IMG/VR virus record: IMGVR_UViG_3300029183_000001
Location: 1,900 to 65,899 of that record
DNA length: 64,000 bases
DNA from: a virus
Reading direction: 5' to 3' (one strand)
Shown here: positions 11,077 to 49,614 of the stretch, piece by piece
Layout: each line of letters opens with the position of its first letter
Position numbering within the stretch: the stretch's first letter is position 1
Notes under the pieces: generated by a model
What the model was told of the DNA's origin: nothing
The model's database searches: none
The model's input: the letters and a program-made list of their open reading frames with translations, nothing else
Position numbers and translations under genes: made by a program

Positions 11077-11092
11077 ACTGGATAACTTTCGA

Positions 11093-12164: not shown

Positions 12165-12168
12165 GACC

Positions 12169-23118: not shown

Positions 23119-23144
23119 AAAAAAAGGCGACCACAAAGCCGCCT
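23119..23144 (-). terminator. intrinsic terminator ending the fibre/membrane block
   Basis: aggcg/cgcct stem with A7 tract on + strand. Confidence 0.6.
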
Positions 23145-23183: not shown

Positions 23184-23621
23184 CTATCCTTCGTCAATGG
23201 CGGGAGCCGCCTTGCTGATGTTGTTCTTCCTCATGACCATCAAAGCGATAGACATTATCGATCCAACAACATCTCCCCAATCAAGCCCAATGATATACTG
23301 GGCATCTTCTGCAGTAAATTCCATTCCGGTAACAATCTGTACAATTGAAAAAATCAATCCTAAAAATCCAGTCCAGAAAATGGGAGATTTCCAAATTGAG
23401 CTCATGATCTCTCCAAAGTTCATTTCTCCAATTGGGGGCTTCGGTATAATAGCCTCTGCAAGTTTGAACGTGGCCCAAACCAAAGCAACTTCACCAAGAA
23501 CCACACCAACCACTCCCATGATTCCTAATCCTGGAGTGTTGATCAATTGTGATAAAGCAATAAAATTGATGCCTGCTATAATCAAAAGAGAAAGCAGCAT
23601 TCTTTTTGTACGAAAACTCAT
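23184..23621 (-). CDS. multi-pass membrane protein (holin candidate)
   Basis: About 4 hydrophobic segments and a basic C-terminus. Confidence 0.6.
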   Translation of the reverse strand: MSFRTKRMLLSLLIIAGINFIALSQLINTPGLGIMGVVGVVLGEVALVWATFKLAEAIIPKPPIGEMNFGEIMSSIWKSPIFWTGFLGLIFSIVQIVTGMEFTAEDAQYIIGLDWGDVVGSIMSIALMVMRKNNISKAAPAIDEG

Positions 23622-23642
23622 TAGTAAAAATTTGGTTTTGAA

Positions 23643-24617
23643 TTAATCTAAAGTCACAGGGCTGAATACCTCTACATTGAAAAATATAATGCAATCCGCT
23701 TGATATCCTCCCTCAATTACGCCTGTAAGGTACATTATTCTTGCCGGATATTCTAAAAGATCTCGACTCGCATTATCAACTGCGGATCTTATCAAATTTC
23801 CCGGTTCTGTCCCAAATCCCTTCTCAACCTGGATTCCATAGGCAACCAAGTGGCAATAACTCATCACCGTTCCCTTCTCACTATCCGGTATTGGCCATTC
23901 TACAAAATCACAATTTAAGTTGTTATGAATGCAATCATCAATTCTCAAATTATTCAATGGCCCCCACACACAATCATGGGTGTGCCTCGATCCCATATTA
24001 TGCCCCATTTCATGACTCATTACAATTTCTGAGTAGACCCCTCCTAATCCAATTCCAAAACTGACCGCATACGGCCCTGCATGGTATGTGACTCCCTGAT
24101 AATCAAAAGTGTGATAATCTAACTCTAATGTTCCAGTCCACGCCACTCCTCCACTGCCCGCCAAACTAATCAAATGCTTCAACCTTCCAGGAGGAGCATT
24201 CTTCCTCAATAATCCAAATTGATTCAACGCAACAAACGCATCCTCAATATATGTACCAACCCAATCCTCCGCAGCACTGGACGGAAACCAAAACCCTGTC
24301 AGGGCCGTACTAATTCCCTCCTTTCCATAGATCTCTGCAAGCTCAATATATCTCTCCTCTATCCACTTAATACAAGCCTCATCACTCGGAAATTGAGACC
24401 TCGTAAACCAATCCGTCTCAATGTATAATCCAACCACCTTACTTGCATCTGCTTTTCTCTCCCCTTTCCATTCCATATGCGACCTGTCCAGGATCGACAT
24501 GTCACAATAAAAGCTCTGGCCATGACATCGATCACACCCAAACATGAGCAATGTCATGAACAACAATGATATCAGTATGTCAATAATTTCTTTGTACTCC
24601 CTGTATTTATCTCCCAT
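23643..24617 (-). CDS. secreted reprolysin-like (M12) zinc metallopeptidase
   Basis: HEMGHNMGSRH (HExxHxxGxxH), Met-turn GTVMSYCH, N-terminal hydrophobic segment ending CHG|Q. Confidence 0.85.
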   Translation of the reverse strand: MGDKYREYKEIIDILISLLFMTLLMFGCDRCHGQSFYCDMSILDRSHMEWKGERKADASKVVGLYIETDWFTRSQFPSDEACIKWIEERYIELAEIYGKEGISTALTGFWFPSSAAEDWVGTYIEDAFVALNQFGLLRKNAPPGRLKHLISLAGSGGVAWTGTLELDYHTFDYQGVTYHAGPYAVSFGIGLGGVYSEIVMSHEMGHNMGSRHTHDCVWGPLNNLRIDDCIHNNLNCDFVEWPIPDSEKGTVMSYCHLVAYGIQVEKGFGTEPGNLIRSAVDNASRDLLEYPARIMYLTGVIEGGYQADCIIFFNVEVFSPVTLD

Positions 24618-25098
24618 ATAATCCCTGACTGTTTAGATGAACTCCAATCATAACCAACGGCTCTCCATCACTACCCCACGCAACGACATCCCCTTGGCAC
24701 CAAACAATTATTTCACCTTCATATTTTCTCCTATATCTGACTTGTATCAAATAATCGATTTCTCCTCTGCTATCAACATGCCTGTGAAACATTTCCACCG
24801 CAGGCCCAACGTCATCCGGATGTATCGCTTGCTGCCAGGACTCAGGCACATTTGGAAAATCTTTCTCCCCCGAATACTGCAAACTGGCCCTATAATTAGG
24901 GCTGTATAATTCCCGGTTGTTCTTTATATCATAAATCCAAAACCCTTTCGAGATATCATCCAATCCATTCTTCATCAACTTACAATAGATCTTATCAATA
25001 TCATTATTGACAGACCGCGCAACTAAATGGAATTGCAACTTGTTAATTGCGCTGTTCCCCCGGAGAAGGAGATCCATGGTTTGAGTTTTTCCTCGCAT
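24607..25098 (-). CDS. stand-alone PAS domain protein (PAS_3 type); start uncertain (possibly ATG near 24975)
   Basis: GFWIYDIKNNRELYSPNY...WQQAIHPDD...YRRKYEGEIIVWCQG...DGEPLVMIGVHL. Confidence 0.85.
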   Translation of the reverse strand: MRGKTQTMDLLLRGNSAINKLQFHLVARSVNNDIDKIYCKLMKNGLDDISKGFWIYDIKNNRELYSPNYRASLQYSGEKDFPNVPESWQQAIHPDDVGPAVEMFHRHVDSRGEIDYLIQVRYRRKYEGEIIVWCQGDVVAWGSDGEPLVMIGVHLNSQGLYGR

Positions 25099-25414
25099 CT
25101 TTTAGCCATTCTTTTACCTTCTCGATCACTGGCTTCATGTTCGGTGATTCAGCATAATCCGCTTCGATCGCACTTACCAACATATCCATAACCATGTACA
25201 TGTTTTCCCTGGAGGCTTCAAGGCTATAAATGTGCGACTCCAACTCAACGATTCTATCCTTCAATTTTCGGATCTCATCATTGCTGTTAATCTGCAGATC
25301 AGCATTGATCTGAGCTTTTGAAGTCTTATACTTAAAATATCGGTCCCATAACTCTTTCAGGCCCAATGCTCCAAGCGCTCCCCCCACGACTTTTGCAATC
25401 TCTAATATCTCCAA
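25043..25414 (-). CDS. single-TM plus coiled-coil protein (holin-like candidate)
   Basis: VVGGALGALGL segment followed by EIRKLKDRIVELESHIYSLE heptads. Confidence 0.65.
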   Translation of the reverse strand: MEILEIAKVVGGALGALGLKELWDRYFKYKTSKAQINADLQINSNDEIRKLKDRIVELESHIYSLEASRENMYMVMDMLVSAIEADYAESPNMKPVIEKVKEWLKDARKNSNHGSPSPGEQRN

Positions 25415-25492
25415 TGTTCATGTATTTAAGGCCGGTCAAGCCAACAATCAATCAAGGTACGTTTATAATAAATTCACACTATACTACTCTCT

Positions 25493-28411
25493 TTAATACA
25501 AGGGATTCCAGGTTGATCCATCACATCCATAATGCTTCGTCCCATTATATCTAATCTCCCCCTCCAATGTTGAATTACAAGTGCCTAAAGTCGTGTCATC
25601 AAAATCCACATGATCCGCCTCTATCCCGCCTGAAAAACTCGCCTCTCCTCCTAAAAAGAAATATGCACCTGTGCTCATAGTTATAGACCCATCCCCTCCT
25701 CCATCAGATAATGCGATATATGGTGTACTCCCTACTGTTCCGGTGGGTTGGATATAAAATAAAGATGATGGCACAAATTCTAATTGTGAGAGATTTTCAA
25801 TATGCTGATTCTCCGCATCATTATCCTTCAACAACACATCAGCCAAATCATCCCTTTCATTATTTGAATCATTGTCATTATCGGACACATCAATCGTTGT
25901 GTTCGCTCCATCTGATATCTGAATCTCAACCTGTACTCCGTTCTTAGTGTGGCTCAAATCCTGGTCATCCTCCGCATGGAATGTCACTCGGGATCCCGAG
26001 CGCGCCAATGTCATATTATCACCAGCTTCCAACTCAACATCTGATGCACTGTTTCCAATATCAATTTTAACCACATCAGAACTCACATCGGCCAATGTCA
26101 ATCCCTGGTCATCTCCTGCATCATCTCCTCTCAGATCTCCCGTTGAGAATCCTAATCCATCATTAGAAGTGAATGTTACAACCCCTGTGTTCCCATCATA
26201 TGATCCACCAGTAAATCCCGCGCCTGTCGCACCCGTCCCTCCTGTGGCACCTGGATCTCCATCATCTCCCTTATCTCCTTTATCACCTTTATCACCTTTA
26301 GCTCCTCTCAAATCAGTTGTTGAGAATCCCAAATTATCATCACTCGTAAACGTCACGATTCCGGTATTCCCATCATACGATCCACCAGTCCATCCATCTC
26401 CATCTGTTCCAGGCGCTCCCGGATCTCCTGGCTGTCCTGGATCACCTTGACCACCTGGATCGCCCTGATCGCCTTGATCTCCTTTGTCACCCTTGTCGCC
26501 TTTGTCGCCCTTGTCGCCTTTTGCACCCTTGATATTCCCCATATTCGCCCATGCTCCCCCGTTCTTCTCATATAGGTTATAATCTTGATTATTGATCGCC
26601 ACATCCCCATCATCTCCATAAGAACTTCCAGGCGTGAACGAAATCACATTTATCTCATCACCTGGATCTCCCTGAGCTCCTGGATCTCCAGGATCGCCCT
26701 GATCGCCCTTATCCCCTTTATCGCCTTTCTCCCCTGTAATGTCAGTTAAGAACTGGAAAGTAGATCCATCATATTGGAAAATCACATCATTCTGATAATT
26801 GAATGCAAAGTCGCCAACATCTGCCCATCCAGAAACATTGTTAGGCGCTCCATTGAATGCTCCCCACTTTGTTCCTCTCTCTCCATCTGCTCCCTGATCA
26901 CCTTGATCTCCCTGATCACCTTTATCTCCTCTCGGTATATAAAACCTCAATTCTGCAGATGTTGAGCTACCTTCATTTACCACATCCGCATTTTGTCCTG
27001 CAGGAAGCGTCTGAGTAGTTAGTATCAAGATGGTCGCATTGGTGCCATCTTCACCATCATCTCCATCTGTTCCATTAGTTCCATTATCTCCCGGATCACC
27101 TTTATCGCCTTTGTCACCTTTGTCGCCCTTATCGCCTTTGTCGCCCTTCGCTCCCTGGATAGGCCCTAAATCAAGCCATCCAGTAGGAGTACAGGTGAAA
27201 ATATGGTCCGGATCAAACGAAGTCACTTTATACGCCTCCCCTTCAATCGCTCCATTACAGGTCGGCAGATCAAGCACATTCACCACTTCTCCAACAATGG
27301 TGAAGCTCGTTCCATCCACTCCATCAGTTCCATCAGCACCCGGATCTCCCTGGTCTCCCTTATCACCCTTCTCTCCTTCCGGGCCGGTCAGATCAATCGT
27401 CGTGAAAGATCCTCCATTTGTGTAATTGATTGTAAAGGTTCCATTACCATTCTCAGTGATAAAATCAATTCCATTTCCCGTCGCTCCTGTGTTTCCAATT
27501 GACCCCTGTGGTCCAGTCAAATCACTCGTCGTGAAACTGGATAGATCCGAATAATTGAAAGTAAACGTACCATTCCCATTATCAACTGTCGAAACAATCC
27601 CAACGCCTGCCACACCTTGCGGCCCTTGACCTCCTGTCTGCCCTTGCGGTCCAGTCAAATCATTGGAGGTGAACGTTGTTAGATCTGTGTAAGTAATGGT
27701 AAAGGTTCCATTACCATTATCAACCGTGGACAGTACTCCAACCCCATCCGCTCCAGGTACACCCTGTTCCCCTTGCTCTCCCTGGGGTCCTTGTGGCCCT
27801 GTGAAATCTCCATCATCTACAGCATCGGCCAATTCTTGCACATTAGTGATCGATGAACTCAAATTGTTATTGAAATTCGTATTATCCAATCCGACCTCTA
27901 ATCCAGTTTGATCATCTGTCCCGGTTCCATCCTGGAGAGCAGCGAGATCAACTGTTATCGTATTGCCATCTTCAATCGAGATCGACACCTCAGTTCCGAC
28001 CAATGAAAAATCCGTGAATGTCTGATCATCAGATATCGACAAACTTGATAAATCCACAAGTTCACTTCCTCCATCTTCCAGTGTAATGAATAATTGATTT
28101 CCGATTAACTCAAATTGAGTGATCTGTTGATCATCCGTCCCTCCCTGCTCGGGCGCCACAAGCACAACCGGGACTTCTGTGATAAACACAGTCCTTTGTC
28201 TCTCATCTCCATTTTTCATGATGAATGAAATACTATCCGGGTATTCCAATTTAATCACTTCATTCAAAGATGAATCTTGCCGCTTCCCATTATCATCCGT
28301 TACAATTACATTATTCCTTCCAGGAACATCACTAAGCGCAATGGTCGGCACTTGACCGACTAATTCAATTGAACAAATAAGAAGAGATAATATGATCAAC
28401 AGATTTTTCAA
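25493..28411 (-). CDS. collagen-like fibre protein with signal peptide
   Basis: Several Gly-X-Y runs (GDKGDKGDK, GPQGPQGEQ) separated by globular repeats; MKNLLIILSLLICSIELVG|Q. Confidence 0.9.
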   Translation of the reverse strand: MKNLLIILSLLICSIELVGQVPTIALSDVPGRNNVIVTDDNGKRQDSSLNEVIKLEYPDSISFIMKNGDERQRTVFITEVPVVLVAPEQGGTDDQQITQFELIGNQLFITLEDGGSELVDLSSLSISDDQTFTDFSLVGTEVSISIEDGNTITVDLAALQDGTGTDDQTGLEVGLDNTNFNNNLSSSITNVQELADAVDDGDFTGPQGPQGEQGEQGVPGADGVGVLSTVDNGNGTFTITYTDLTTFTSNDLTGPQGQTGGQGPQGVAGVGIVSTVDNGNGTFTFNYSDLSSFTTSDLTGPQGSIGNTGATGNGIDFITENGNGTFTINYTNGGSFTTIDLTGPEGEKGDKGDQGDPGADGTDGVDGTSFTIVGEVVNVLDLPTCNGAIEGEAYKVTSFDPDHIFTCTPTGWLDLGPIQGAKGDKGDKGDKGDKGDKGDPGDNGTNGTDGDDGEDGTNATILILTTQTLPAGQNADVVNEGSSTSAELRFYIPRGDKGDQGDQGDQGADGERGTKWGAFNGAPNNVSGWADVGDFAFNYQNDVIFQYDGSTFQFLTDITGEKGDKGDKGDQGDPGDPGAQGDPGDEINVISFTPGSSYGDDGDVAINNQDYNLYEKNGGAWANMGNIKGAKGDKGDKGDKGDKGDQGDQGDPGGQGDPGQPGDPGAPGTDGDGWTGGSYDGNTGIVTFTSDDNLGFSTTDLRGAKGDKGDKGDKGDDGDPGATGGTGATGAGFTGGSYDGNTGVVTFTSNDGLGFSTGDLRGDDAGDDQGLTLADVSSDVVKIDIGNSASDVELEAGDNMTLARSGSRVTFHAEDDQDLSHTKNGVQVEIQISDGANTTIDVSDNDNDSNNERDDLADVLLKDNDAENQHIENLSQLEFVPSSLFYIQPTGTVGSTPYIALSDGGGDGSITMSTGAYFFLGGEASFSGGIEADHVDFDDTTLGTCNSTLEGEIRYNGTKHYGCDGSTWNPLY
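26215..27800. repeat. 9-nt tandem repeats encoding collagen triplets, plus interspersed ~30-aa repeats
   Basis: cctttgtcg/cccttgtcg runs; three STVDNGNGTFT-type and two GGSYDGNTGxVTFTS units. Confidence 0.85.
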
Positions 28412-28421
28412 ACCACTCTTT

Positions 28422-28952
28422 TTATAGATTCCAAATCATGGCCGCTAATTCAGCCTTTGTTTTTCCACTGATATCATCATTACTAATCCCGGCCTCTCTC
28501 GCCCACTTCCTCAATTGAGATATTTTGTTGTCATCTAAATCGCCAGGACCGGAGTAAATGCTTTTCAATTTATCAGCAATACCCTGATCTCCCCCACCTG
28601 ATCCTCCTTCTCCATCTGAATCGCTGATCTTGGTAACTGTCTTGGCTCCTCCTTTCTCATTTATTTTGGCAATATACCTCTCATGTTTTCGGATCTGCTT
28701 TCCAATTTGAGTCTTCTCTTTCCTCTGCTCTTCAATTACACTTTGAGCAGTGGCATCCCTCTCTCTTAAAATTGAAATAATCCACTCATGTCCCTTTATT
28801 AATGCGCTGTCAGTTTTCACAACGTTGATATCCAATCCAAGACTTTCAACCTTGTAAGTAGAATCAGTCTCAGTTGTTATAATTTCATTCTTCTGCGAAA
28901 AGCAGCTAATTGAAATTAGAAACCCAAAAATCAATAGTGCTATATTTTTCAT
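28422..28952 (-). CDS. secreted coiled-coil protein with C-terminal Rho-N/HeH-like helices
   Basis: MKNIALLIFGFLISISCFS|Q; ISQLRKWAREAGI...SGKTKAELAAMI. Confidence 0.65.
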   Translation of the reverse strand: MKNIALLIFGFLISISCFSQKNEIITTETDSTYKVESLGLDINVVKTDSALIKGHEWIISILRERDATAQSVIEEQRKEKTQIGKQIRKHERYIAKINEKGGAKTVTKISDSDGEGGSGGGDQGIADKLKSIYSGPGDLDDNKISQLRKWAREAGISNDDISGKTKAELAAMIWNL

Positions 28953-28957
28953 TTTTT

Positions 28958-30043
28958 CTATTTGTTATAAAGTGTATAATCAAATTTCAACCCCCATGAA
29001 TTTAGAAAATCTTCTATGTACGGGAATATCTCTTTTTCAACTTCCAGGACTGAAATATTATAATACTCCTTCCTTGGTTCATCGTCTCCTCCTGGATCTT
29101 GAATCTCTCCATGTAACACTTCTCCTCCAAGTTCAAAATTGATCATTCCACAACTTCCATTCCCGCAATGAATTTGCCCCCAATGTTTCCAAACCTCTTT
29201 GTCCCACAAGCCAGTATCAGGGTTGTACTCTCTTCTCTTTCTTCTGGTGTCGATATAAACCTTGTCATCAAATTCATTCCCATATGCCGGATCGGTTTCA
29301 AAATCAAAGTAAAATCCAGGAGACTTGTAGTGTCCATATGATGGTATAAAATAGATTCCTTTGAATGCCGTGATATAACCCTCTGCATATTTCCTCTTCT
29401 TCCCTGGACTTTCTAAGATCTCATTAACAATCTTCTCAAGCCACGGCATCTCTCCATAGAACTCACTTATGTGCGTTTCCCCTGCTTTGAATTCCTCCAG
29501 CTCTGCGACCAACTCCCCTCCGGAGGCCACATCTGTCCACGGGTTATCAAAACTGTCATACCTGATTCCCGAATAAGCCCACGGAGCGAAATATGCCAAT
29601 ATGAATCCATCTCGGATCTTCTTATGGTAATATCCTGTTGGATCATAAGATGAATAATTCACCCTGTAGATATCATACGTCTCAGCATCAAACATCACCT
29701 GGATAACTTCTCTTTCATTTTTCTTCCCGACATACAACCTTTGGAAATGATACGAGTCCTCTTTTGGTATCTGACTCAATACACTCTTCAAAACATCTCC
29801 TCCTCCAATGGCATCAATCCTGTCTTTCAATCTCTGAATCTCAGTATTCGCCACATTCAGCGAATCAATCAAATCAAGCCTCTCATATAGCTTGTCTGCA
29901 ACATCGGCATCAATCAAAGTTCTCACTCTTCGGCTCTCCTCTGCCTGTAACATCAATTCGGTCGGCTCTCGTTCCTTGTAGATTGCCTGTCCAAATACAT
30001 CTCCCAAAATGGAGACCATGAAAATCAATACAATAAATCTCAT
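28958..30043 (-). CDS. secreted hypothetical protein
   Basis: MRFIVLIFMVSILGDVFG|Q; Tyr/Phe-rich. Confidence 0.75.
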   Translation of the reverse strand: MRFIVLIFMVSILGDVFGQAIYKEREPTELMLQAEESRRVRTLIDADVADKLYERLDLIDSLNVANTEIQRLKDRIDAIGGGDVLKSVLSQIPKEDSYHFQRLYVGKKNEREVIQVMFDAETYDIYRVNYSSYDPTGYYHKKIRDGFILAYFAPWAYSGIRYDSFDNPWTDVASGGELVAELEEFKAGETHISEFYGEMPWLEKIVNEILESPGKKRKYAEGYITAFKGIYFIPSYGHYKSPGFYFDFETDPAYGNEFDDKVYIDTRRKRREYNPDTGLWDKEVWKHWGQIHCGNGSCGMINFELGGEVLHGEIQDPGGDDEPRKEYYNISVLEVEKEIFPYIEDFLNSWGLKFDYTLYNK

Positions 30044-30052
30044 TGGTAAAAA

Positions 30053-31288
30053 TTAACTGGTTAAAGAATTTAGTTTGTTCAACGTTATGTAATCCGAATC
30101 AAAATGATCCGGCAATGTTTCCGGTATATCAATCACAATCTGAGATCCAAACATCAGCCCTGCATTCCCTCCTGTCTCCCCTGGGAAAAATCCAGGGTAA
30201 TTAACCTCATGAGTCACTCCGCTCCAATACTTCCTATTCTTTCCATCTGAATCAAAATGAGGATTCCACCAATACGAATCCTGATCAACAACAATATGAG
30301 ATCCATACACCCTTTCCCAACCTTCAGGATGGTAAGGCGTCAATACTGGATCTTTAATAATCTTGAACTCATAAGGATTGTCACCGACTCCGCAATATAT
30401 CGCTCTATGGTTATGTGCTGCCGACTCGCTCCCACAAGTGAAAGTCAACAAATACTTCTCCCCCACTTTTACAACTCCTGAAGCATGAACCAACCGGCTC
30501 CCCAACGGATGAAGGTTGTTGGCCTCGCAATGCGATCCACTCAAAATCCATCTATCAAATTCCCATTCTCTCAATGAACCCTCTTTGCAAATATAGGTGC
30601 ATAGGTAATACTTATCACTTTGATAAGTTCCCGCCTGAGCTCCTCCCCTTTGAAGGTTATGGTAAACATTACAATAAGCCATTAATCGATCTGTGCCGTC
30701 CTCCATACGCTTGACATCCGTCATATCGATCCAATTAAACCTCTCTCCATTTGGCCCCAAAGGTATTCCTCCTTTCTTCGAGATCTTCGTTGCATCAATT
30801 ACTGGTGTCTTCTCAGTGATCCATCTACTCTTCCCATCTGGCCTTTGGTTCGGTTGAACATCATAACCAGGTGCCGGCCAATCCATTGTCCCTTCCGCTT
30901 GGTAATTGTACGACAAATAGACCGACTTTGAATAATTCGGCTGTCCTCCAACTTGACCTCCCCAAAACATGAAATATGCAAATGATGGATAACTCCCCAT
31001 CCTGGGATCATGCCTCAATACCGACACCTCACACTTATTCATTCCGGGAACATCTGATATATGAGTTGCCAATCTTGGATTCTTCCAATTGGTCAACCCA
31101 TCAACACTGCTATGCGTTACATGCTGCTTACTCTTCGCATTCACCACATACTCTCCAATCCTTCCATCCCAAATCACATATGGAGGATAGTACTGATTCT
31201 TTACATTTCCGAAATGCCCAAAATCGACCTCATCGATCATTGGTCCATCCAGGGATTCAAAAGTTATAATCTCATTACTCATTCCCAC
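30053..31288 (-). CDS. putative five-bladed beta-propeller glycoside hydrolase (GH43/32/130-like)
   Basis: Repeated S-x-D-G-x-x-W-like blades; HASGVVKVGEKYLLTFT...AIYCGVGDNPYEFKIIKDPVLTP. Confidence 0.55.
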   Translation of the reverse strand: MGMSNEIITFESLDGPMIDEVDFGHFGNVKNQYYPPYVIWDGRIGEYVVNAKSKQHVTHSSVDGLTNWKNPRLATHISDVPGMNKCEVSVLRHDPRMGSYPSFAYFMFWGGQVGGQPNYSKSVYLSYNYQAEGTMDWPAPGYDVQPNQRPDGKSRWITEKTPVIDATKISKKGGIPLGPNGERFNWIDMTDVKRMEDGTDRLMAYCNVYHNLQRGGAQAGTYQSDKYYLCTYICKEGSLREWEFDRWILSGSHCEANNLHPLGSRLVHASGVVKVGEKYLLTFTCGSESAAHNHRAIYCGVGDNPYEFKIIKDPVLTPYHPEGWERVYGSHIVVDQDSYWWNPHFDSDGKNRKYWSGVTHEVNYPGFFPGETGGNAGLMFGSQIVIDIPETLPDHFDSDYITLNKLNSLTS

Positions 31289-31956
31289 TGTTTTGTATCT
31301 GTGTACAATATTTCAAAATTCCATCTTCTGTTTGATGTAGAAAGATTCAGAGTTGCTGCCTCTCCATTAGCATTATAAGCCGTAACCCCACTATCAACCG
31401 TTTGTCCCACAGTGGCGCCCGAGGCTACATATAAAGCAATCCAGGTATCAGACCCGAATGTTGATGTTGGGTTTTTTACAATTCCATAATTCAGTTTATG
31501 ACCTCCCCCACCTCCTTCCAATAATGGAATATCTAAATATGATCCATACCCTGCACTAATCGAAGTTGTTGAACTTCTCAATTTAGATGCGGTGTTATCA
31601 CTGATCCCCAAATTCCTCATTTTGAATCCAAGAAAGTAATTACCGGATGGAATTGGCCCATTTGAATTTACCGTCTCATTACCCGCAGTGCTCAAATCCG
31701 TTCCATCTCCATTTCCCAACTTCGTCACACTGCTCAAATTGTTTTCAATATTGGAATACTCCGCAGCCGTGATCATTACAATATCTCCATCACTGGCCGC
31801 ATCATAGTCTGCCAACGACGTGCTCAATTGCGCTCTCTGCTGATTTACTTCAATTGCAAATAAGAGCATCGATTGACCCTCTCCAATAACTGGAAAGGCC
31901 ATCATTAATATGACTATAAATTTGTACATGATACTGAACCTGTTAATCCTTTCCAA
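31279..31956 (-). CDS. secreted hypothetical beta-rich protein
   Basis: From internal Met: MYKFIVILMMAFPVIGEG|Q. Confidence 0.65.
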   Translation of the reverse strand: MERINRFSIMYKFIVILMMAFPVIGEGQSMLLFAIEVNQQRAQLSTSLADYDAASDGDIVMITAAEYSNIENNLSSVTKLGNGDGTDLSTAGNETVNSNGPIPSGNYFLGFKMRNLGISDNTASKLRSSTTSISAGYGSYLDIPLLEGGGGGHKLNYGIVKNPTSTFGSDTWIALYVASGATVGQTVDSGVTAYNANGEAATLNLSTSNRRWNFEILYTDTKQWE

Positions 31957-34889
31957 TCTGTATTATTTGCCGTTACTTCAAAATCAATCACATCACCTGT
32001 ATTGATTGTGAAATCTGAGAAATTCAAAGTCGTCGCGCTAAGCGTTGTCAACGCTATACTTCCCTGTGATACATCATTCTTCCTTATATGTACAGTCACA
32101 GACGGGGATCCGCTCGTCGTTCCGCTATCCGCTTTAAACTCAACCTCTGTGCAACTGACTCCATCATAAGCCTCCGGTGTAGCCAAATAACTCTCACTCT
32201 CTGATATCGTAATGCTCTGAGATCTCCCAAACATCTGTATAGAAATTGGAGGAAGGGCATATGGTAGATCTATATTCTTCGTCGCCTCTCCATCTCCTTC
32301 AATCGACAACTGAATTCTGTGATTCGCAGCATCAAAGCTCGATACATCAAATGTTTGGTCATCCGTTCCTGTTCCATCCTGGAGGGAAGCAAGATCAACT
32401 GTCTGATTCGCTTCTCCATCATCTTCCAATGAGATTTCCAGCGTGGTGCCATTCAAATTTAGGAAATCAATTGTTTGGTCATCACTTGTTGCAATCCCGG
32501 TCAATCCTGATCCATCACCTACAAACGCAGTCGCTGTAACGGTTCCATTTACCTCCAATGCAGTACTCGGTGACTTCTCATTTCCAATTCCAACGAATCC
32601 AGTTGATTCATCCAAGAATAACATTGACACCCCTTGATCATTAGTATGTGATACATCATTTCCATTTGCCGGTCTAAATATCACCTCATTATTGGTGTCA
32701 TCTAATTGCCAGTGCATATATGCTGTCGCCCCTTCCGCTAAACTAAGAACAGTCTGCGCAGTGGTTATATCACTTCCAGAAACTACCAATCTCGCCCACG
32801 GGTCAGTCAATCCAATTCCAACATCTCCATCATCTTCAATCGTCATCCGAATTCCATTATTGGTTCCCGCCCCTCTCGTCCAAAATTGTAAATCTCCTTG
32901 ATTCGTGCCATGATCAAGAAACCTGGCCGCAATCATTGCAGAAGCCGGTTGTGTAGATCCATCCGAAAAGAACATCGTCGCATAATTGAAATTCGTTTGG
33001 TTGTCATTCGTCATGATCAACGGATTCCCACTCGATGTAATAGCCGTCCCTCCTGATGTTGTTGCGAATACACCTCCGCTTGCATTTGATGATTGTATAT
33101 GCAATAACTTATTTGGCACATTAGTACCGATCCCAACCCTCTGCTGATTATCAACCCTTAAAGCAAAAGTTGAATTGGTGAATATGTCAAAATGGTAATT
33201 CCCTACAGTCTCGATATATGGTGAATTATAAATATCTCCATACGCTCCAAATTCAACCTCTCCAATGCCCGTTCTCTCTATTTTCATTCTTGATCCAAGG
33301 TGGGAAGTCCCTTCGATATGCAATGCCATCTCAGCGTCCAATGCTCCTATTCCTAAATATCCTAAATAATTCAATGCCATCTTCTGTAGAACAAGCCCTG
33401 CATTAGCGACTGACCAAATTATTCTCCCATCTTCTGATCCATCGGTTGGATCTTGGATATCTCCCGTAACCCTTACATAATTTTGGGCATTCCCCAAATT
33501 GTCTTTTGCATAGTAATTTATATACCCCGCATTTCCCGGCCCTCCTCCGGCATCTCTGAATAATGACAGTTCTGGTATTGTGCCGCCTGTTCCTCTTACT
33601 CCAATAGTTGTGTTTGTAATCCCTGAATGAATACCTCCAACATCAAGCAGCGCATTTGGTGTTGATGTCTTTACTCCAATTTCTCCACCAGTTACCCGGA
33701 CAACCTCTCCACTTCCATCATGAATCGCCAACTCACTTCCTGATCCTGGATTATCGATCTTTGAATGCCCACTATTGGCAGTGTTGTAATACTTCGATGA
33801 GCTATTCGTCCTATGCAAAATATCTCCACCTCCATTCATCTCCAAATTTCCTCCTCCTCCAATTACCAACTGCTCATTCGCATTCAGATAATTGATCCCT
33901 ACATTGCCCGTGCTCTTTAATACCAATTGATATTCTGATGTCTGATCATTGTACCACGCATGATTCGCGCTCCCCCCACTAAACAATCTCATTTGATCAA
34001 CTCCATTCTCCTGGTATGCAACAAGGGTTCTTGATCCTGTTCCAGTCCAATTATACCGAACCATTTTATTGGTAGTTCCTTCATAGATAACCGCCCCTCC
34101 TTTGTAATGTGCTAACGCCCCTGGGTTTGTTTCTCCAACTCCAAAATTCCCCCCTGATATAATAAAATCACCAGAACCGGAAAACGTTACATCATTTCCA
34201 TCTTTATCAATATCTCGAGCTGCGGTAACTGTCCCATCACTCGAATAAATATTCGCTCCTGATATTGTTGCCGGATCTACTGGCATAAGCTCTCCATTGA
34301 CATCCATTCCCACAAGATCTTCCAGCGTCAATGTTGTTCTGAGAGTCGGCATATGGACTCCCCCATCATTGCTCACTTTGAAAGTTACGACACTGTTTGA
34401 ATTGAGACTTGTCATCCCCGCATGCCTCATCCATACTTCTCCATATCCTCCAGGCCCACCAGTGTCATAAAACTGGATGTAATTCACGCCTGCCAATCCA
34501 GGTCCTAAATAGATCTTGTAGTTCCCATTCTCAACCTCCATATCTCCCGTAACATCGAAGTTCTGTTCCGGGGTGGGGTCATTTATCCCAACGTGTCCAC
34601 TTGATAGGATATACACATTTAAAGACCCATCAAAGATCAAATCATTTCCATTCAACGTAACCGTCCTATCCTCATCCAAAGATCCGTCCGTTTCATAAAA
34701 CCTCTCCTCGGCATCAACCACACTATCCACATACGGCTTCGCCACAAATAGAGTGTCTAAATCAATTGTATTGATCGGCTTAACGAAAACAGTGTCAACC
34801 CCTGTTACTTGACCTTTCAGGCTACTGGACGCAAACGCGCACAACCCAAGAAGGGTCAAGATTCTGATAAAAATTAATGTTCTGTCCAT
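31914..34889 (-). CDS. tail-fibre-like protein with signal peptide
   Basis: Eight GxVGIGxxxP-type repeats, DDQ repeats, C-terminal beta-sandwich; ...GLCAFASSSLKG|Q. Confidence 0.8.
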   Translation of the reverse strand: MDRTLIFIRILTLLGLCAFASSSLKGQVTGVDTVFVKPINTIDLDTLFVAKPYVDSVVDAEERFYETDGSLDEDRTVTLNGNDLIFDGSLNVYILSSGHVGINDPTPEQNFDVTGDMEVENGNYKIYLGPGLAGVNYIQFYDTGGPGGYGEVWMRHAGMTSLNSNSVVTFKVSNDGGVHMPTLRTTLTLEDLVGMDVNGELMPVDPATISGANIYSSDGTVTAARDIDKDGNDVTFSGSGDFIISGGNFGVGETNPGALAHYKGGAVIYEGTTNKMVRYNWTGTGSRTLVAYQENGVDQMRLFSGGSANHAWYNDQTSEYQLVLKSTGNVGINYLNANEQLVIGGGGNLEMNGGGDILHRTNSSSKYYNTANSGHSKIDNPGSGSELAIHDGSGEVVRVTGGEIGVKTSTPNALLDVGGIHSGITNTTIGVRGTGGTIPELSLFRDAGGGPGNAGYINYYAKDNLGNAQNYVRVTGDIQDPTDGSEDGRIIWSVANAGLVLQKMALNYLGYLGIGALDAEMALHIEGTSHLGSRMKIERTGIGEVEFGAYGDIYNSPYIETVGNYHFDIFTNSTFALRVDNQQRVGIGTNVPNKLLHIQSSNASGGVFATTSGGTAITSSGNPLIMTNDNQTNFNYATMFFSDGSTQPASAMIAARFLDHGTNQGDLQFWTRGAGTNNGIRMTIEDDGDVGIGLTDPWARLVVSGSDITTAQTVLSLAEGATAYMHWQLDDTNNEVIFRPANGNDVSHTNDQGVSMLFLDESTGFVGIGNEKSPSTALEVNGTVTATAFVGDGSGLTGIATSDDQTIDFLNLNGTTLEISLEDDGEANQTVDLASLQDGTGTDDQTFDVSSFDAANHRIQLSIEGDGEATKNIDLPYALPPISIQMFGRSQSITISESESYLATPEAYDGVSCTEVEFKADSGTTSGSPSVTVHIRKNDVSQGSIALTTLSATTLNFSDFTINTGDVIDFEVTANNTDWKGLTGSVSCTNL

Positions 34890-36498
34890 TGATGTTAGTG
34901 TGTAAAATATGACTCATTGAAACCTTCTCTGTCATCATTACTCCAAATAGATAAATCTGCCTCTTCTCAATATCCCCGGGCAATGTCACAGGCGAAACGA
35001 TGGAAGAAGATGAAACCCCTGTCACCTCATTACATTGAGCATTGCTATTCTTCAACACTGTTAAATCAACACTGTTTCCATTTTCTATACTCAGCGTGTT
35101 TGTTCCTTCATCCCAATCTAAAAACTGATCATCTGACGAACTCCCCGCACCTGTTCCAACATGCCCCAATCCCTCGATCACATACACAACCCTTCTGTCT
35201 CCTCCTTCAATTGCTCCTCCAATCACTATGTTCTCAGCCGCATCTTGGGATAGTGTGATACTGTCAAGCTCATTCGTCGGGTCAGTATCTAAATCATTCA
35301 ATATATGGTTGTTCCAATTATCAACATCACTTTGTTGAATTGATGCCGCAACCGACAAAAGGAAAACCGGATCTAATTCTGTTATGGGCAAAACCTTCGT
35401 TGTACTATTCTCCAACTTCAACGTGATCTCCCCATTCGCAAAACTGAATGTTTCAATTTCTTGATCATCAGTGTTATCGAGATACGGGGTTAAATTGATT
35501 GCCGGCTCAGTGTTTCCGATTATGTAAAGTGAATTGCCATTCAACTCCAACCGATCTTCTAAATCAAATAGACTTTTATTGACTGTGTTCCCATCCTCCA
35601 TCGTGATGGATAGAACTTTGGTCACTGTATTCCATACCACATCAATCTCCTGATCATCCGTCCCTGAATTATTGTATATACTCAAATCAATCTGTGTCGG
35701 GCTTCCATTATTTGTCACAGTGAGGATGTCATTCAATAACTGCAGATCCTGGATCTCATTCAATATGTCATTATCTGCTGAGAACGGCAACCAACCCGAC
35801 CATGTGCCTACGTAGCGCGTTCGATAATAGAATCCGGTTTCCCCGGCTCCCTGAATGTATGGTATGGCTAATTGCGTGACATTCCCTGTCCCATCCAGGG
35901 AGGCATATTCGAATACAAAACAATAATAAAACTCAGTTCCCGTGGTTGGCCCATTCGTGTGATTCCCTCTTAACAATGTCACATTACTTCCCTGTTGTGT
36001 ATTCGTGATATCATTCCAATCCAGAACCCCCGTTGTCACTCGGGCGCCAAACTCATCCTCAATATTCACAAAAATGTCATCTCCTCTCTCAATCCCAATA
36101 TTGACAACCTCATTATTCTTCCCTATGTAAATGAGATCTTGATTGTCCTCAAACTCAACCGCGCTACACCCCTCCAAGTAAGCCCTCAATAATGGCTCAG
36201 TGTTATATGTCGCAATTTGATTTATTGGGATCTCCAACGCTGTCTCATCCTTATGAGGCCCAATCATTCTCACATTTCCATTCCCTCGAAACCAAATCTT
36301 TACAGGCTCAAAAATGAACTTATCCGCACTCCCGTCTGAGAACAATAAACCCTTTGAAATATTGACACTGAAATCAGTACAGCTATTACAGATCACCACA
36401 TCATTGTTATCCTCATTCACACAGGTGATTGTGTACGTCTGACTATGTAGATTCCAACTAATAAAAAGGCAAGCGATTATTAATATCCTCCCCATCAT
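34822..36498 (-). CDS. tail-fibre-like protein (pyocin-knob-type domain) with signal peptide
   Basis: NGPTTGTEFYYC...NVTQLAIPY...FYYRTRYVGTWSGW knob motif; DDQ repeats; MMGRILIIACLFISWNLHS|Q. Confidence 0.75.
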   Translation of the reverse strand: MMGRILIIACLFISWNLHSQTYTITCVNEDNNDVVICNSCTDFSVNISKGLLFSDGSADKFIFEPVKIWFRGNGNVRMIGPHKDETALEIPINQIATYNTEPLLRAYLEGCSAVEFEDNQDLIYIGKNNEVVNIGIERGDDIFVNIEDEFGARVTTGVLDWNDITNTQQGSNVTLLRGNHTNGPTTGTEFYYCFVFEYASLDGTGNVTQLAIPYIQGAGETGFYYRTRYVGTWSGWLPFSADNDILNEIQDLQLLNDILTVTNNGSPTQIDLSIYNNSGTDDQEIDVVWNTVTKVLSITMEDGNTVNKSLFDLEDRLELNGNSLYIIGNTEPAINLTPYLDNTDDQEIETFSFANGEITLKLENSTTKVLPITELDPVFLLSVAASIQQSDVDNWNNHILNDLDTDPTNELDSITLSQDAAENIVIGGAIEGGDRRVVYVIEGLGHVGTGAGSSSDDQFLDWDEGTNTLSIENGNSVDLTVLKNSNAQCNEVTGVSSSSIVSPVTLPGDIEKRQIYLFGVMMTEKVSMSHILHTNINGQNINFYQNLDPSWVVRVCVQ

Positions 36499-36528: not shown

Positions 36529-36564
36529 AAAAAATGACCGAAGATTTCCCACCTCCGGCCATTT
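36529..36564 (-). terminator. terminator-like hairpin between head genes and fibre block
   Basis: aaatgaccg/cggccattt stem with A-tract on + strand. Confidence 0.5.
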
Positions 36565-36592
36565 CAAATTTTTCAACCAATGAAGTTTATTG

Positions 36593-37447
36593 CTATTTCT
36601 GCTTTTTCCTCGCAGCCACTTCCTTCTTAATGTCCTTAGATGCCTGGGCCGTCTGCTCAGCAGCTTCAACCAATTCATCATCTGATAAACCGCTGTAATC
36701 GCCATCTGACAACTGTCCAGCCAATCCACCTCCAACTGCAGTCTTCCACATCCTTTTCGATCCCGTCCTGGACATAGTGACGCCATCATAATCGATCGGC
36801 TTCTGCAGGACTTCAATGGTGACGGTGAACTCAGTATTATCATCACTCTCAACAACTGTGATCTCTCCATACTCAACGGAAAGGTTCCCCAATGCTGTCC
36901 CGATAGCCGTGGCCAATGCCGCGCCCTCAGTCGTGTTATGAGTACCAAGTGCCTCGTCAGATCCATTGTAACTCAAATTACCCTGAGCTCCTACGGCATG
37001 GACAATCTGAAGTTCGGTTGCAATGACTGATTCAGTGAGCCTTGTTAATGCAGTTTCTGTGACACCATTCAACATCGCTACGATCTCGAAATCGGCATCA
37101 ATGGTAATCTTTTTATTACCTCCACCAATGTCTCTTACCCTTACTCCCCCATTGTCATGCCATTCCGTTTTAACGAATGCTCCCATTCCATTCAACCTGT
37201 AAGGCTGAATAGCTGCATCCAGAATGTTTTTTTCCAATGTGTCAGGATCCGCAGTAAGACCAAAAGAAGCAGTTCTCGTAGTCCCTTCTTGATCGATGAA
37301 TTTCACTCCATCAAAATCTGCAGCCAGGGCAACATCAACAGTATGCCGGGCCAAAACTGCACTATAGCCCGGACATTGGGTCGCCTTATTACTCAGTGTA
37401 ATAAGATTCGGAGTGTTTTGTTCCGGTACACTTTTCTGATATAACAT
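36593..37447 (-). CDS. putative structural protein
   Basis: 284 aa, Thr/Ala/Gly-rich, end of head operon. Confidence 0.6.
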   Translation of the reverse strand: MLYQKSVPEQNTPNLITLSNKATQCPGYSAVLARHTVDVALAADFDGVKFIDQEGTTRTASFGLTADPDTLEKNILDAAIQPYRLNGMGAFVKTEWHDNGGVRVRDIGGGNKKITIDADFEIVAMLNGVTETALTRLTESVIATELQIVHAVGAQGNLSYNGSDEALGTHNTTEGAALATAIGTALGNLSVEYGEITVVESDDNTEFTVTIEVLQKPIDYDGVTMSRTGSKRMWKTAVGGGLAGQLSDGDYSGLSDDELVEAAEQTAQASKDIKKEVAARKKQK

Positions 37448-37462
37448 GGTTTAAAATTTAAG

Positions 37463-39831: not shown

Positions 39832-39840
39832 TTCATATTA

Positions 39841-40266: not shown

Positions 40267-40283
40267 GGTTAAAAAATTTATTC

Positions 40284-40862: not shown

Positions 40863-40905
40863 AACTTAATTTTTAACGGTTATCAAATATGGTTCAAGAC
40901 ACTTC

Positions 40906-42120: not shown

Positions 42121-42163
42121 GATTCGATTTTTATAGCTTATTCAAAATTTTTCCTTACTGATA

Positions 42164-42775: not shown

Positions 42776-42786
42776 GATTAAATATT

Positions 42787-49613: not shown

Positions 49614-49614
49614 C

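What the first reader, a model, noticed from the sequence alone, without database searches (positions are those of the whole stretch)
23643..36498. 13-kb block of tail-fibre-, collagen- and protease-like genes carrying Sec signal peptides that end before Gln
Seen: seven of the ten genes begin with a hydrophobic signal peptide followed by Gln: WNLHS|Q (558 aa, pyocin-knob-type motif), SSLKG|Q (991 aa, eight GxVGIG repeats), IGEG|Q, DVFG|Q, SCFS|Q, ELVG|Q (972-aa collagen) and RCHG|Q (M12 protease). No typical T9SS C-terminal sorting domain was apparent. Established: Bacteroidota SPI substrates commonly expose an N-terminal Gln (pyroglutamate Q-rule), while virion fibres normally fold and assemble in the cytoplasm without export. 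The block sits where tail fibres are expected and is bounded by terminators (36529, 23119). Inference: either virion fibres mature in the periplasm and join particles at lysis, or the phage builds a host surface fibre or adhesin (lysogenic conversion, receptor masking).
Basis: partly seen in the sequence, partly recalled or inferred. Interest (0 to 1): 0.8.

Follow-up and report, generated by a model that had tools for sequence, protein, structure and literature searches.

The report
Phage tail fibres carrying export signals
An uncultured marine phage of Bacteroidota puts its host's own secretion signal on seven late fibre-type proteins, as many related phages do, which suggests that part of the virus's host-recognition gear matures outside the cytoplasm where phage particles are built.

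Summary
Seven of the ten genes at 36498-23643 (minus strand) start with a secretion leader that ends in a small residue followed by Gln, the Bacteroidota "Q-rule". That is 7/10 in the block against 2/95 elsewhere in the record (Fisher p=2e-7). The leaders are not start-codon artefacts. The genes abut or overlap, and the homologous cassette in eight other phage contigs, on at least two unrelated backbones, carries leader|Gln on at least 23 further proteins.

The proteins are fibre-like. They contain a widespread tail-fibre knob domain, a collagen-like stretch, a jelly-roll tip, and a C-terminal beta-sandwich whose closest solved folds are podovirus fibre anchors (T7 gp17-N type, Z 9.3). Cysteines in the end domains come and go in pairs. 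No T9SS sorting domain and no integrase were found.

Two cultured Cellulophaga phages (phi10:1, phi18:3) have leader|Gln proteins that GenBank annotates as structural from MS/MS proteomics.

My best reading (about 0.45) is that these are virion fibres matured in the periplasm which join particles at lysis. The main rival (0.3) is exported accessory proteins that never join the virion.

This scan has already noted the same habit in at least 60 other genomes. I found no account of it in the papers I searched.

The parts
34822..36498 (-). 558-aa first cassette protein. Leader ..NLHS|Q, then a Cys-rich N-domain, a tail-fibre knob domain (aa ~145-245), 'TDDQ' repeats, and a C-terminal beta-sandwich (aa ~488-558) with a co-varying Cys pair.
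   Evidence: ORF and leader. Knob. Orthologues with leader|Gln (P0002-4, P0184). AF2 model of aa 395-558 has pLDDT 87-96 over the last ~70 aa. Nearest folds are podovirus fibre anchors: LME-1 9efk_AE Z 9.3, rmsd 1.6 A over 67 aa; CBA120 TSP4 Z 6.9; T7 gp17-N Z 5.8. Cys pair is absent together in P0004.
31914..34889 (-). 991-aa fibre protein. Leader ..SLKG|Q, eight GxVGIG-type repeats, TDDQ repeats, and a C-terminal 8-stranded jelly roll with an invariant Cys pair. The gene start overlaps the upstream gene by 68 nt.
   Evidence: phrog_9942 'tail fiber protein' E=3e-12. Weak hits to pelagiphage and cyanophage proteins. Orthologues in L002, L003 and L006 carry leaders. AF2 of the last 140 aa has pLDDT 75; the best fold match is the tail-fibre tip of phage 7-7-1 at Z 9.7, but the fold is generic.
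31279..31956 (-). 225-aa small cassette protein. Leader ..IGEG|Q; the start is probably the ATG at codon 10. Function unknown.
   Evidence: Orthologues of 209-219 aa in L002, L003 and L006, all with leader|Gln. The Atlas model is weak, with a possible jelly roll at TM 0.47.
30053..31288 (-). 411-aa protein without a leader; the start is probably the ATG at codon 3. Five-bladed beta-propeller of the GH43/GH32/GH130 glycoside-hydrolase type.
   Evidence: ESM Atlas feature scores 0.92-0.93 and structural TM about 0.6 to GH130/43/32 clusters. No Pfam or PHROG hit. Not present in the cassettes of the other phages.
28958..30043 (-). 361-aa protein. Leader ..DVFG|Q. Two Cys. No recognisable relatives.
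   Evidence: No Pfam, PHROG or NCBIfam hit. No usable Atlas match.
28422..28952 (-). 176-aa small cassette protein. Leader ..SCFS|Q, a basic coiled stretch, and a helix-extension-helix-like C-terminus.
   Evidence: Weak Rho_N hit, E=0.03. Positional orthologues of 182-206 aa with leader|Gln in L002, L003 and L006.
25493..28411 (-). 972-aa collagen-like fibre with a TTG start. Leader ..ELVG|Q, TDDQ repeats, several Gly-X-Y tracts, and a C-terminal domain with an invariant Cys pair.
   Evidence: PF01391 E=7e-24. Many 'tail fiber' PHROGs matched through the collagen tracts. Orthologues L006 740 aa and L002 590+ aa carry leaders.
25043..25414 (-). 123-aa protein with a short hydrophobic N-terminus and a coiled coil. 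No leader|Gln.
24607..25098 (-). 163-aa stand-alone PAS_3 domain protein. No leader.
   Evidence: PF08447 E=3e-12.
23643..24617 (-). 324-aa metzincin (reprolysin-like) protease with a hydrophobic leader. The cut is either before Gln34 (signal peptidase I) or before Cys28 (lipoprotein type). The protein is Cys-rich.
   Evidence: Reprolysin_3 E=1.3e-6, above the cut-off. HExxHxxGxxH and a Met-turn are read from the sequence. Leader.
23184..23621 (-). 145-aa multi-span membrane protein closing the transcription unit. Holin candidate.
   Evidence: Hydrophobic segments. No Pfam hit. Membrane proteins sit in the same position after the cassette in L006/G001 (165 aa), phi10:1 (gp096-098) and phi18:3 (gp088, gp091).
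36531..36565 (-). Terminator-like hairpin plus T-run between the upstream 284-aa gene and the block. No Bacteroidota-type promoter box is seen after it.
23125..23144 (-). Terminator-like hairpin plus T-run that ends the late unit before the Sak recombinase gene.

Best explanation
The block is the host-recognition (fibre) module at the far end of the late operon of a long-tailed phage. The host is a Bacteroidota bacterium, probably a marine member of the Flavobacteriaceae.

Proposed mechanism:
1. The fibre proteins are made as Sec preproteins.
2. Host signal peptidase I cuts them just before Gln. The host glutaminyl cyclase then probably converts that Gln to pyroglutamate.
3. They fold and form disulfide bonds in the periplasm.
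4. The DNA-filled tailed particles are built in the cytoplasm. They meet the fibres only when the holin opens the inner membrane at lysis. The holin candidate is the 145-aa membrane protein that ends the block.
5. The C-terminal beta-sandwich of the 558-aa protein resembles the tail-anchoring domain of T7-type fibres. It is the candidate docking piece.
6. The 991-aa and 972-aa proteins are the long fibres, with binding tips at their C-termini.

Shown here:
- The leaders and their Gln junctions.
- Their conservation in the same cassette on unrelated phage backbones.
- The fibre-type domains and the anchor-like fold.
- Cysteines that come and go in pairs.
- The absence of T9SS sorting domains.
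- Leader|Gln proteins annotated as structural from MS/MS proteomics in two cultured Cellulophaga phages.

Inferred, not shown:
- Actual export, cleavage, cyclisation and disulfide formation.
- That the pool found in virions passed through the periplasm.
- When and how the fibres dock.
For: 1. Leaders. Seven of ten genes carry n-h-c leaders ending [G/S]|Gln, against 2/95 elsewhere, p=1.8e-7. The Q-rule is specific to Bacteroidetes signal-peptidase-I substrates (PMC5837995).

2. Conservation. Orthologues of the 558-, 991-, 225-, 176- and 972-aa proteins lie in the same order in L002, L003 and L006, whose terminase, portal and other structural genes are unrelated to this window's. All have leader|Gln. 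Fibre-like genes with TDDQ-type repeats in five further loci from four contigs (L007-L012) also have it. That gives at least 23 further proteins.

3. Fibre nature.
- The knob domain at aa 145-245 is shared with classic leaderless tail fibres (P0041; P0047, whose C-terminus looks like a Peptidase_S74-type chaperone by eye).
- phrog_9942 tail fibre hit.
- Collagen repeats.
- Jelly-roll tip.

4. Docking candidate. Nearly all of the top 28 fold matches of the 558-aa C-terminal domain are phage tail, fibre or neck parts, led by the N-terminal anchors of podovirus fibres (Z 9.3-5.8).

5. Extracytoplasmic signature. Invariant Cys pairs sit in the three terminal domains. P0004 has lost both partners together.

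6. Operon logic.
- There is no promoter after the upstream hairpin.
- The genes abut or overlap.
- The block is followed by a holin-like gene and then a strong terminator.
- G001 is a 45.3-kb relative that CheckV rates 100% complete. It has no other fibre-like gene.

7. Cultured analogues. phi10:1 gp091-094 and phi18:3 gp085-087 are annotated structural 'based on experimental MS/MS proteomics analysis'. They start with leader|Gln and lie between the tail genes and the lysis genes.
Against: - No experiment or trained predictor was available, so export and cleavage are inferred from sequence.
- I know of no precedent in tailed phages for adding exported parts to cytoplasmic particles. The time window at lysis is short.
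- The MS/MS annotations do not say whether the leader is removed, and co-purifying secreted proteins cannot be excluded.
- The TDDQ repeats and the knob domain also occur in chromosomal, leader-bearing cell-surface proteins. Some of these lie in operons with a type-B T9SS cargo and a PorP/SprF protein. The cassette could therefore be a borrowed surface structure.
- The whole cassette, N-termini included, moves between unrelated backbones, which is unusual for a part that must dock on a specific tail.
- The anchor-like fold is a small beta-sandwich. Z 9.3 is only modestly above what unrelated models reach (typical best Z 7-8).
- The tail-tip genes lie 9 kb away.
- The Bacteroidota O-glycosylation motif is not enriched: 12 seen against 18 expected.
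- Other Bacteroidota phages (B124-14, tant8-1) have leaderless tail proteins.
Confidence: 0.45

Rival explanations
1. The proteins are exported but never join the virion. The cassette is a self-contained accessory module. Its products would act in the periplasm or be released at lysis. Possible roles are masking or binding the receptor, blocking superinfection or loss of progeny on debris, degrading or binding polysaccharide, or serving as free adhesins.
For: - The cassette travels as a unit between unrelated backbones.
- It contains enzymes (a metzincin, and a GH-like propeller beside it).
- The same repeats build chromosomal cell-surface proteins.
- P. gingivalis phages carry Q-rule proteins that their authors read as envelope modifiers (PMC10367356).
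- From my own knowledge, lambda lom and bor and T5 llp are exported phage proteins encoded near tail genes.
Against: - Three proteins of 558-991 aa expressed from the late structural operon would be a heavy cost for an accessory role.
- The first protein has an anchor-like fold.
- There is no own promoter.
- G001 has no alternative fibre gene.
- Analogous leader|Gln proteins are annotated as structural from MS/MS proteomics in phi10:1 and phi18:3.
Confidence: 0.3
2. These are ordinary virion fibres assembled in the cytoplasm. The hydrophobic N-terminus is not used for export of the virion pool. It might stay uncleaved, tether the fibre to the inner face of the membrane, or be removed in some other way. 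Any export would be a side route.
For: - All known tailed-phage fibres assemble in the cytoplasm.
- The MS/MS annotations do not show the N-termini.
- The 411-aa neighbour has no leader.
Against: - The strict small-residue|Gln junction has no known role other than as a signal-peptidase-I site followed by cyclisation.
- The cores are strongly hydrophobic, not of the weak signal-arrest-release kind.
- Cys pairs co-vary as disulfides do.
Confidence: 0.12
3. The phage builds a fibre on the host surface. The exported proteins would ride out through the host T9SS by binding a host type-B cargo and PorP/SprF pair, as their chromosomal look-alikes may do.
For: Chromosomal relative P0006 lies in tandem operons of the form PTL_trimer protein, then CHU_C protein, then PorP/SprF. 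The chromosomal relatives are also leader|Gln proteins without a sorting domain of their own.
Against: - The record has no CHU_C, Por_Secre_tail or PorP/SprF gene.
- Similarity to the chromosomal proteins is limited to the repeats.
- There is no integrase.
- The genes are late and lie next to the lysis gene.
Confidence: 0.06
4. Artefact: wrong start codons or chance hydrophobic N-termini.
For: One public gene call trims the 991-aa leader. Two genes use TTG starts.
Against: The leaders are conserved as leaders, though not in sequence, in every orthologue. The genes are tightly packed. Enrichment is p=1.8e-7.
Confidence: 0.03

Closest known systems
Bacteroidota 'Q-rule' substrates of Sec and signal peptidase I (Bochtler et al. 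2018, PMC5837995; PMC10653852)
   Same: An n-h-c leader, small residues at -1 and -3, and Gln at +1. Cellular neighbours of the homologues show the same junctions.
   Different: Here the substrates are phage-encoded, fibre-like late proteins. Cyclisation and export are untested.
Leader|Gln 'structural proteins' of cultured Cellulophaga phages phi10:1 (gp091-094, NC_021802) and phi18:3 (gp085-087, NC_021794)
   Same: Several consecutive leader|Gln proteins lie between the tail genes and the membrane/lysis genes. Homologous versions are shared by a siphovirus and a podovirus. They are annotated as structural from MS/MS proteomics.
   Different: Sequence resemblance to this window is only weak and at repeat level (E about 1e-3 to 1e-4 in a database of eight proteins). 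Those cassettes include pectate lyases. This one has collagen-like and TDDQ-repeat fibres, a metzincin and a PAS protein.
N-terminal tail-anchor domain of podovirus fibres and spikes (T7 gp17-N, LME-1, P-SCSP1u, CBA120 TSP4)
   Same: The predicted fold of the last ~70 residues of the 558-aa protein: Z 9.3-5.8, rmsd 1.6-2.3 A over 60-67 residues.
   Different: The domain sits at the C-terminus, not the N-terminus. Sequence identity is 8-20%. This phage has a tape measure, so it is long-tailed. Docking is untested.
Q-rule proteins of unknown function in Porphyromonas gingivalis phages (Matrishin et al. 2023, PMC10367356)
   Same: Phage genes with Sec leaders that obey the Q-rule. This is the nearest statement in print that I found.
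   Different: Those are small proteins of unknown function, read as modifiers of the host envelope. No fibre or tail parts were named.
Chromosomal TDDQ-repeat and 'PTL_trimer' surface proteins of Flavobacteriaceae, in operons with CHU_C (type-B T9SS cargo) and PorP/SprF
   Same: Leader|Gln, the same repeat modules and the GxVGIG motif.
   Different: They are chromosomal and have no phage genes nearby. They have T9SS partners that the phage lacks. Similarity is confined to the repeats.
Exported phage 'morons' near tail genes (lambda lom and bor, T5 llp; from my own knowledge)
   Same: Phage-encoded proteins with signal sequences, encoded beside tail-fibre genes.
   Different: Those are single small genes with their own expression signals. 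They are not fibre-like and do not form a conserved multi-gene late cassette.

Membership tests
Bacteroidota Q-rule Sec/SPI substrate | N-terminal leader with a charged n-region, a hydrophobic core and a short c-region | tested here: met
   Seven block proteins have an 8-residue hydropathy mean of 2.6-3.6. No trained predictor was available.
Bacteroidota Q-rule Sec/SPI substrate | Small residue at -1 and Gln at +1 of the cleavage site | tested here: met
   Residue -1 is S, G, G, G, S, G, G and residue +1 is Gln in all seven. The 324-aa site is ambiguous with a lipoprotein cut.
Bacteroidota Q-rule Sec/SPI substrate | Host belongs to Bacteroidota | tested here: met
   Relatives of the repeat proteins are almost all from Flavobacteriaceae, Saprospiraceae and other Bacteroidota. 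The nearest terminases among isolates are from Flavobacterium phages.
Bacteroidota Q-rule Sec/SPI substrate | Cleavage and pyroglutamate formation actually occur | not testable with these tools
   This needs N-terminal proteomics.
Phage tail fibre / receptor-binding protein | Fibre-type domains | tested here: met
   Knob domain, phrog_9942, collagen repeats, jelly-roll tip, anchor-like sandwich.
Phage tail fibre / receptor-binding protein | Encoded in the late structural operon next to tail or lysis genes | tested here: inconclusive
   The block is in the late operon, ahead of a holin-like gene. However, the head module separates it from the tape-measure and tail-tip genes. G002 and G003 have the same layout.
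Phage tail fibre / receptor-binding protein | Present in the virion | not testable with these tools
   There is only indirect support: analogous leader|Gln proteins of phi10:1 and phi18:3 are annotated as MS/MS-detected structural proteins.
Phage tail fibre / receptor-binding protein | Made and assembled in the cytoplasm (no export signal) | tested here: not met
   Leaders are present and conserved. This is what makes the block a variant. Leaderless controls: B124-14 and tant8-1.
T9SS cargo | C-terminal sorting domain of type A (TIGR04183) or type B (CHU_C / TIGR04131) | tested here: not met
   No NCBIfam or Pfam hit at E<=0.1 in the ten proteins. No hit in six frames of the whole record. The fold matches of the two modelled C-termini are phage fibre parts and generic jelly rolls.
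Lysogenic-conversion moron | Own promoter and terminator, and a temperate phage with an integrase | tested here: not met
   No promoter box after the upstream hairpin. No PF00589 in the record. The record is only about 74% complete, so absence of an integrase is not proven.
Collagen triple-helix repeat protein (PF01391) | Gly-X-Y tracts that score above the Pfam cut-off | tested here: met
   83.8 bits against a cut-off of 27.2, in five stretches.
Metzincin / reprolysin-like peptidase | HExxHxxGxxH zinc site with a Met-turn, and a Pfam score above the cut-off | tested here: met
   Reprolysin_3 scores 29.4 bits against a cut-off of 22.4. The motif and a downstream Met were read from the translation.
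Bacteroidota O-glycosylated periplasmic proteins | Enrichment of the motif D-(S/T)-(A/I/L/V/M/T) | tested here: not met
   12 observed against 18 expected from shuffles in the nine leader proteins. The three large fibres have 6 against 14.5.

The most novel reading that the evidence does not exclude
A broad set of tailed phages of Bacteroidota finish their virions across the inner membrane. Their fibres are exported by Sec, capped with pyroglutamate and disulfide-bonded in the periplasm. They dock onto cytoplasmically built particles only at lysis, here through a C-terminal T7-gp17-N-like domain.
Probability: 0.4. Interest if true: 0.85.

Novelty: new variant of a known kind. Interest (0 to 1): 0.65.

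Why it matters
Textbook assembly of tailed phages takes place entirely in the cytoplasm. If these fibres really pass through the periplasm, virion completion would be tied to host secretion, signal peptidase, glutaminyl cyclase, disulfide formation and the lysis step. That would change several things:
- how receptor-binding proteins of Bacteroidota phages are predicted and annotated, because gene callers trim the leaders;
- how such proteins should be expressed for engineering, since they would need an oxidising compartment;
- what can limit phage production.

The question can be tested directly in cultured Cellulophaga phage-host pairs.

If the rival is right, phages of a dominant marine and gut phylum carry a large, mobile, exported fibre cassette whose role in the host envelope is unknown. 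That would also be new.

Tried and rejected
**Searches that found nothing useful**
- Single-protein pattern scans of viral contigs with the 284-aa and 558-aa proteins found no relatives. An alignment of the C-terminal half was needed.
- Megablast of the block against cultured phages hit only collagen-like low-complexity stretches.
- tblastn with the capsid candidate and with the collagen protein's C-terminus found nothing.
- The word-based homologue search with residues 1-480 of the 991-aa protein returned only the protein itself.
- PHROGs and Pfam leave most head and neck genes unnamed even at loose thresholds.
- The Atlas gave nothing usable for the 361-aa and 225-aa proteins.
- The contig behind L002 could not be extended.
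- Literature searches found no description of signal peptides on tail fibres of Bacteroidota phages. The Hankyphage paper states that its phage DGR target proteins lack them. The Cellulophaga genome paper could not be read, so the MS/MS evidence rests on the GenBank annotation alone.

**Ideas tested and dropped**
- The N-terminal Cys-rich domain of the 558-aa protein is not demonstrably homologous to the first cassette protein of G002 and G003 (E=0.42). I therefore dropped the argument that the first protein's N-domain tracks the phage backbone.
- Chromosomal relatives are not prophage-borne, as far as my set of phage proteins can tell.
- PF26696 (PTL_trimer) could not be tested, because the local Pfam copy did not report it even for P0006.
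- O-glycosylation motif enrichment, reported by this scan for other phages, is absent here.

**Not used**
- No complex prediction was sent, because I make no specific binding claim that a pass would decide.

Full report
**What the DNA is.** The window is most of a 69.8-kb IMG/VR virus record that CheckV rates about 74% complete. All long ORFs lie on the minus strand, and the GC skew is unusually strong. Read in the direction of transcription, the record holds:
- a tape measure gene (49615-52863; PF10145 and many tape-measure PHROGs);
- two tail-tip-sized genes of 390 and 1029 aa. This matches the 1087-584-82-1028 aa layout of Flavobacterium phage tant8-1;
- a lipoprotein gene;
- an S49 head protease, and a probable capsid gene with six unnamed genes after it;
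- the block in question (36498-23643);
- a multi-span membrane protein, then a terminator;
- recombination and replication genes, an amidase endolysin and the large terminase.

The closest terminases among cultured phages are from Flavobacterium phages, at 35-39% identity.

**The observation.** Seven of the ten block genes encode a leader with a charged start, a strongly hydrophobic core and a short tail ending in Ser or Gly, directly followed by Gln. In the rest of the record only two proteins look like this. There are also two lipobox proteins and one twin-arginine-like leader. The contrast of 7/10 against 2/95 gives p=1.8e-7. A Gln right after the signal-peptidase-I site is a trait specific to Bacteroidetes, where it is cyclised to pyroglutamate (PMC5837995).

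**Are the starts right?**
- The genes are separated by 5-10 nt or overlap.
- A public gene call that starts the 991-aa gene 15 codons later is contradicted by three orthologues. Each keeps an ATG and a full leader inside a 47-68 nt overlap with the upstream gene.
- The cleavage site of the protease is the only ambiguous one.
- No T9SS sorting domain is detectable in the proteins or anywhere in the record.
- Terminator-like hairpins flank the unit. No promoter box follows the upstream hairpin. The block therefore looks like the attenuated tail end of the late operon.

**Relatives.** The C-terminal half of the 558-aa protein has close relatives (38-50% identity) that also carry leader|Gln. Their contigs (L002, L003, L006) hold the same gene order: 334-357 aa, then 707-795 aa, then 209-219 aa, then a ~180-206-aa protein (in L003 after an intervening leaderless 174-aa gene). 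In L002 and L006 a collagen-like fibre follows. These are orthologous to this window's 558-, 991-, 225-, 176- and 972-aa genes. Nearly every member has leader|Gln; the exception is that extra 174-aa gene in L003.

None of the other structural proteins of those phages match this window's. One of them, G001, is a 45.3-kb genome rated complete. It has no tape-measure relative of this window's kind and no other fibre-like gene.

Two further contigs, G002 and G003, share this window's layout: tape measure upstream, then head genes, then leader|Gln fibres. They also share distant homologues of the 238- and 474-aa proteins.

In all I count at least 23 further leader|Gln fibre-block proteins in eight other phage contigs. 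The cassette is therefore mobile between backbones, and the leaders are conserved as leaders while their sequences drift.

**What the proteins are.**
- *Knob domain.* Residues 145-245 of the 558-aa protein form a widespread knob domain, with 639 relatives at E<=0.001. Of the 149 best hits other than the query itself, about half (76) have no hydrophobic N-terminus; these include classic leaderless tail fibres. Another 61 have a hydrophobic N-terminus, 28 of them with a Q-rule-type junction. The domain matches T4-type long-fibre distal subunits and, weakly, R-pyocin fibres.
- *C-terminus of the 558-aa protein.* An AF2 model of the last 164 residues is confident only over the final ~70 (pLDDT 87-96). 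An exhaustive fold comparison puts phage tail parts in nearly all of the top 28 places. The list is led by the N-terminal tail anchors of podovirus fibres: LME-1 Z 9.3, P-SCSP1u 7.1, CBA120 TSP4 6.9, T7 gp17-N 5.8. No T9SS sorting domain appears.
- *991-aa protein.* It has a tail-fibre PHROG hit and ends in an 8-stranded jelly roll. The best match is a phage fibre tip, but the fold is generic.
- *972-aa protein.* It is collagen-like.
- *Cysteine pairs.* Each of the three terminal domains holds two invariant cysteines. One relative (P0004) has lost both partners together. This is what disulfides in exported proteins look like.
- *411-aa neighbour.* It has no leader and is a GH43/32/130-type propeller. 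It is not part of the conserved cassette.

**The cellular connection.** The TDDQ repeats are abundant in chromosomal proteins of marine Flavobacteriaceae and other Bacteroidota, and no phage genes from my set lie nearby. One such protein sits in tandem operons with a type-B T9SS cargo and a PorP/SprF protein. All these cellular proteins also show leader|Gln. The similarity to the phage proteins is confined to the repeats.

**Earlier notes of this scan.** A look-up showed that this scan has flagged leader-bearing fibre modules in at least 60 other genomes. It also pointed to cultured Cellulophaga phages. I checked that lead myself.
- In phi10:1 (NC_021802), gp091-094 follow the tail genes and precede membrane proteins and the endolysin. 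They start with leader|Gln and are annotated 'structural ... based on experimental MS/MS proteomics analysis'.
- In the unrelated podovirus phi18:3 (NC_021794), the same is true of gp085-087. Two of these are homologous to phi10:1 proteins.
- I could not read the underlying paper.
- Another claim from those notes, enrichment of the O-glycosylation motif, does not hold for this window.
- Two other Bacteroidota phages, B124-14 and tant8-1, have leaderless tail proteins, so the habit is lineage-specific and not universal.

**Weighing.** That these are genuine Sec/signal-peptidase-I substrates seems very likely, about 0.85. Where they end up is open.

For virion fibres that mature in the periplasm and join at lysis:
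- the fibre domains;
- the anchor-like fold;
- the position in the late operon next to a holin-like gene;
- the lack of any other fibre gene in a complete relative;
- the MS/MS annotations in the cultured phages.

Against it:
- no precedent;
- the topological problem of bringing exported fibres and cytoplasmic particles together;
- the fact that the whole cassette moves between backbones;
- its kinship with cell-surface proteins;
- the modest strength of the fold match;
- MS/MS data that do not show the N-termini.

My odds:

| Reading | Odds |
|---|---|
| Periplasm-matured virion fibres | 0.45 |
| Exported non-virion accessory module | 0.30 |
| Cytoplasmic assembly with an unused or differently used leader | 0.12 |
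| T9SS-assisted surface display | 0.06 |
| Artefact | 0.03 |

**Novelty.** In print I found only the remark that some P. gingivalis phage genes of unknown function obey the Q-rule (PMC10367356). None of the papers I searched describes tail fibres with export signals. This window is one more clear instance of a recurring habit of Bacteroidota phages that I did not find described in print. It adds a candidate docking domain and paired-cysteine evidence.

Noticed in passing
window 1-64000: GC skew is -0.2 to -0.4 in every 2-kb window, and every long ORF is on the minus strand. This is an unusually strong and uniform strand asymmetry for a phage.
   Followed up: no
window 45187-52863 and 36593-43641; also G002, G003 (L085, L086): The tape measure and two tail-tip-sized genes lie upstream of the head protease and capsid module, not downstream of it. 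Two related contigs have the same order.
   Followed up: partly
window 6214-7288 and 44705-45175: Further exported proteins outside the block. One 219-aa protein has a twin-arginine-like leader (RRSFF). One 152-aa leader|Gln protein has a weak papain-like toxin-domain hit (E=0.0085, below the cut-off). One lipobox protein lies directly after the 1029-aa tail-tip-sized gene.
   Followed up: partly
window 34822-34889; L002 10956-11005; L003 10421-10467; L006 10800-10846: The leader of the second cassette gene is encoded inside a 47-68 nt overlap with the conserved C-terminus of the first gene. This holds in all four phages, so it is a conserved two-frame coding stretch. Automatic gene callers trim it.
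   Followed up: partly
L004 5868-14702 (GCA_043554545.1): Two tandem chromosomal operons, each with a leader|Gln 'PTL_trimer' repeat protein without a sorting domain, then a CHU_C type-B T9SS cargo, then a PorP/SprF protein. The first protein may reach the surface by riding on the second.
   Followed up: no
window 30053-31288: A GH43/32/130-type five-bladed propeller without a leader, inserted between leader-bearing cassette genes. It is absent from the cassettes of the other phages.
   Followed up: partly
G001 (L087/L088): portal 10258-12192, and genes at 25510-25980 and 25996-26430: The portal and two small downstream proteins all end in the same acidic ...E-D-E-D-L-L type tail. This could be a shared targeting or interaction tag.
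   Followed up: no
window 23184-25414: A stand-alone PAS_3 domain protein sits between a coiled-coil membrane-associated protein and the exported metzincin, just before the holin-like gene.
   Followed up: no
window 25493-36498: The three large exported fibres hold fewer Bacteroidota O-glycosylation motifs than shuffles predict (6 against 14.5). This is the opposite of what this scan reported for some soil phages.
   Followed up: partly
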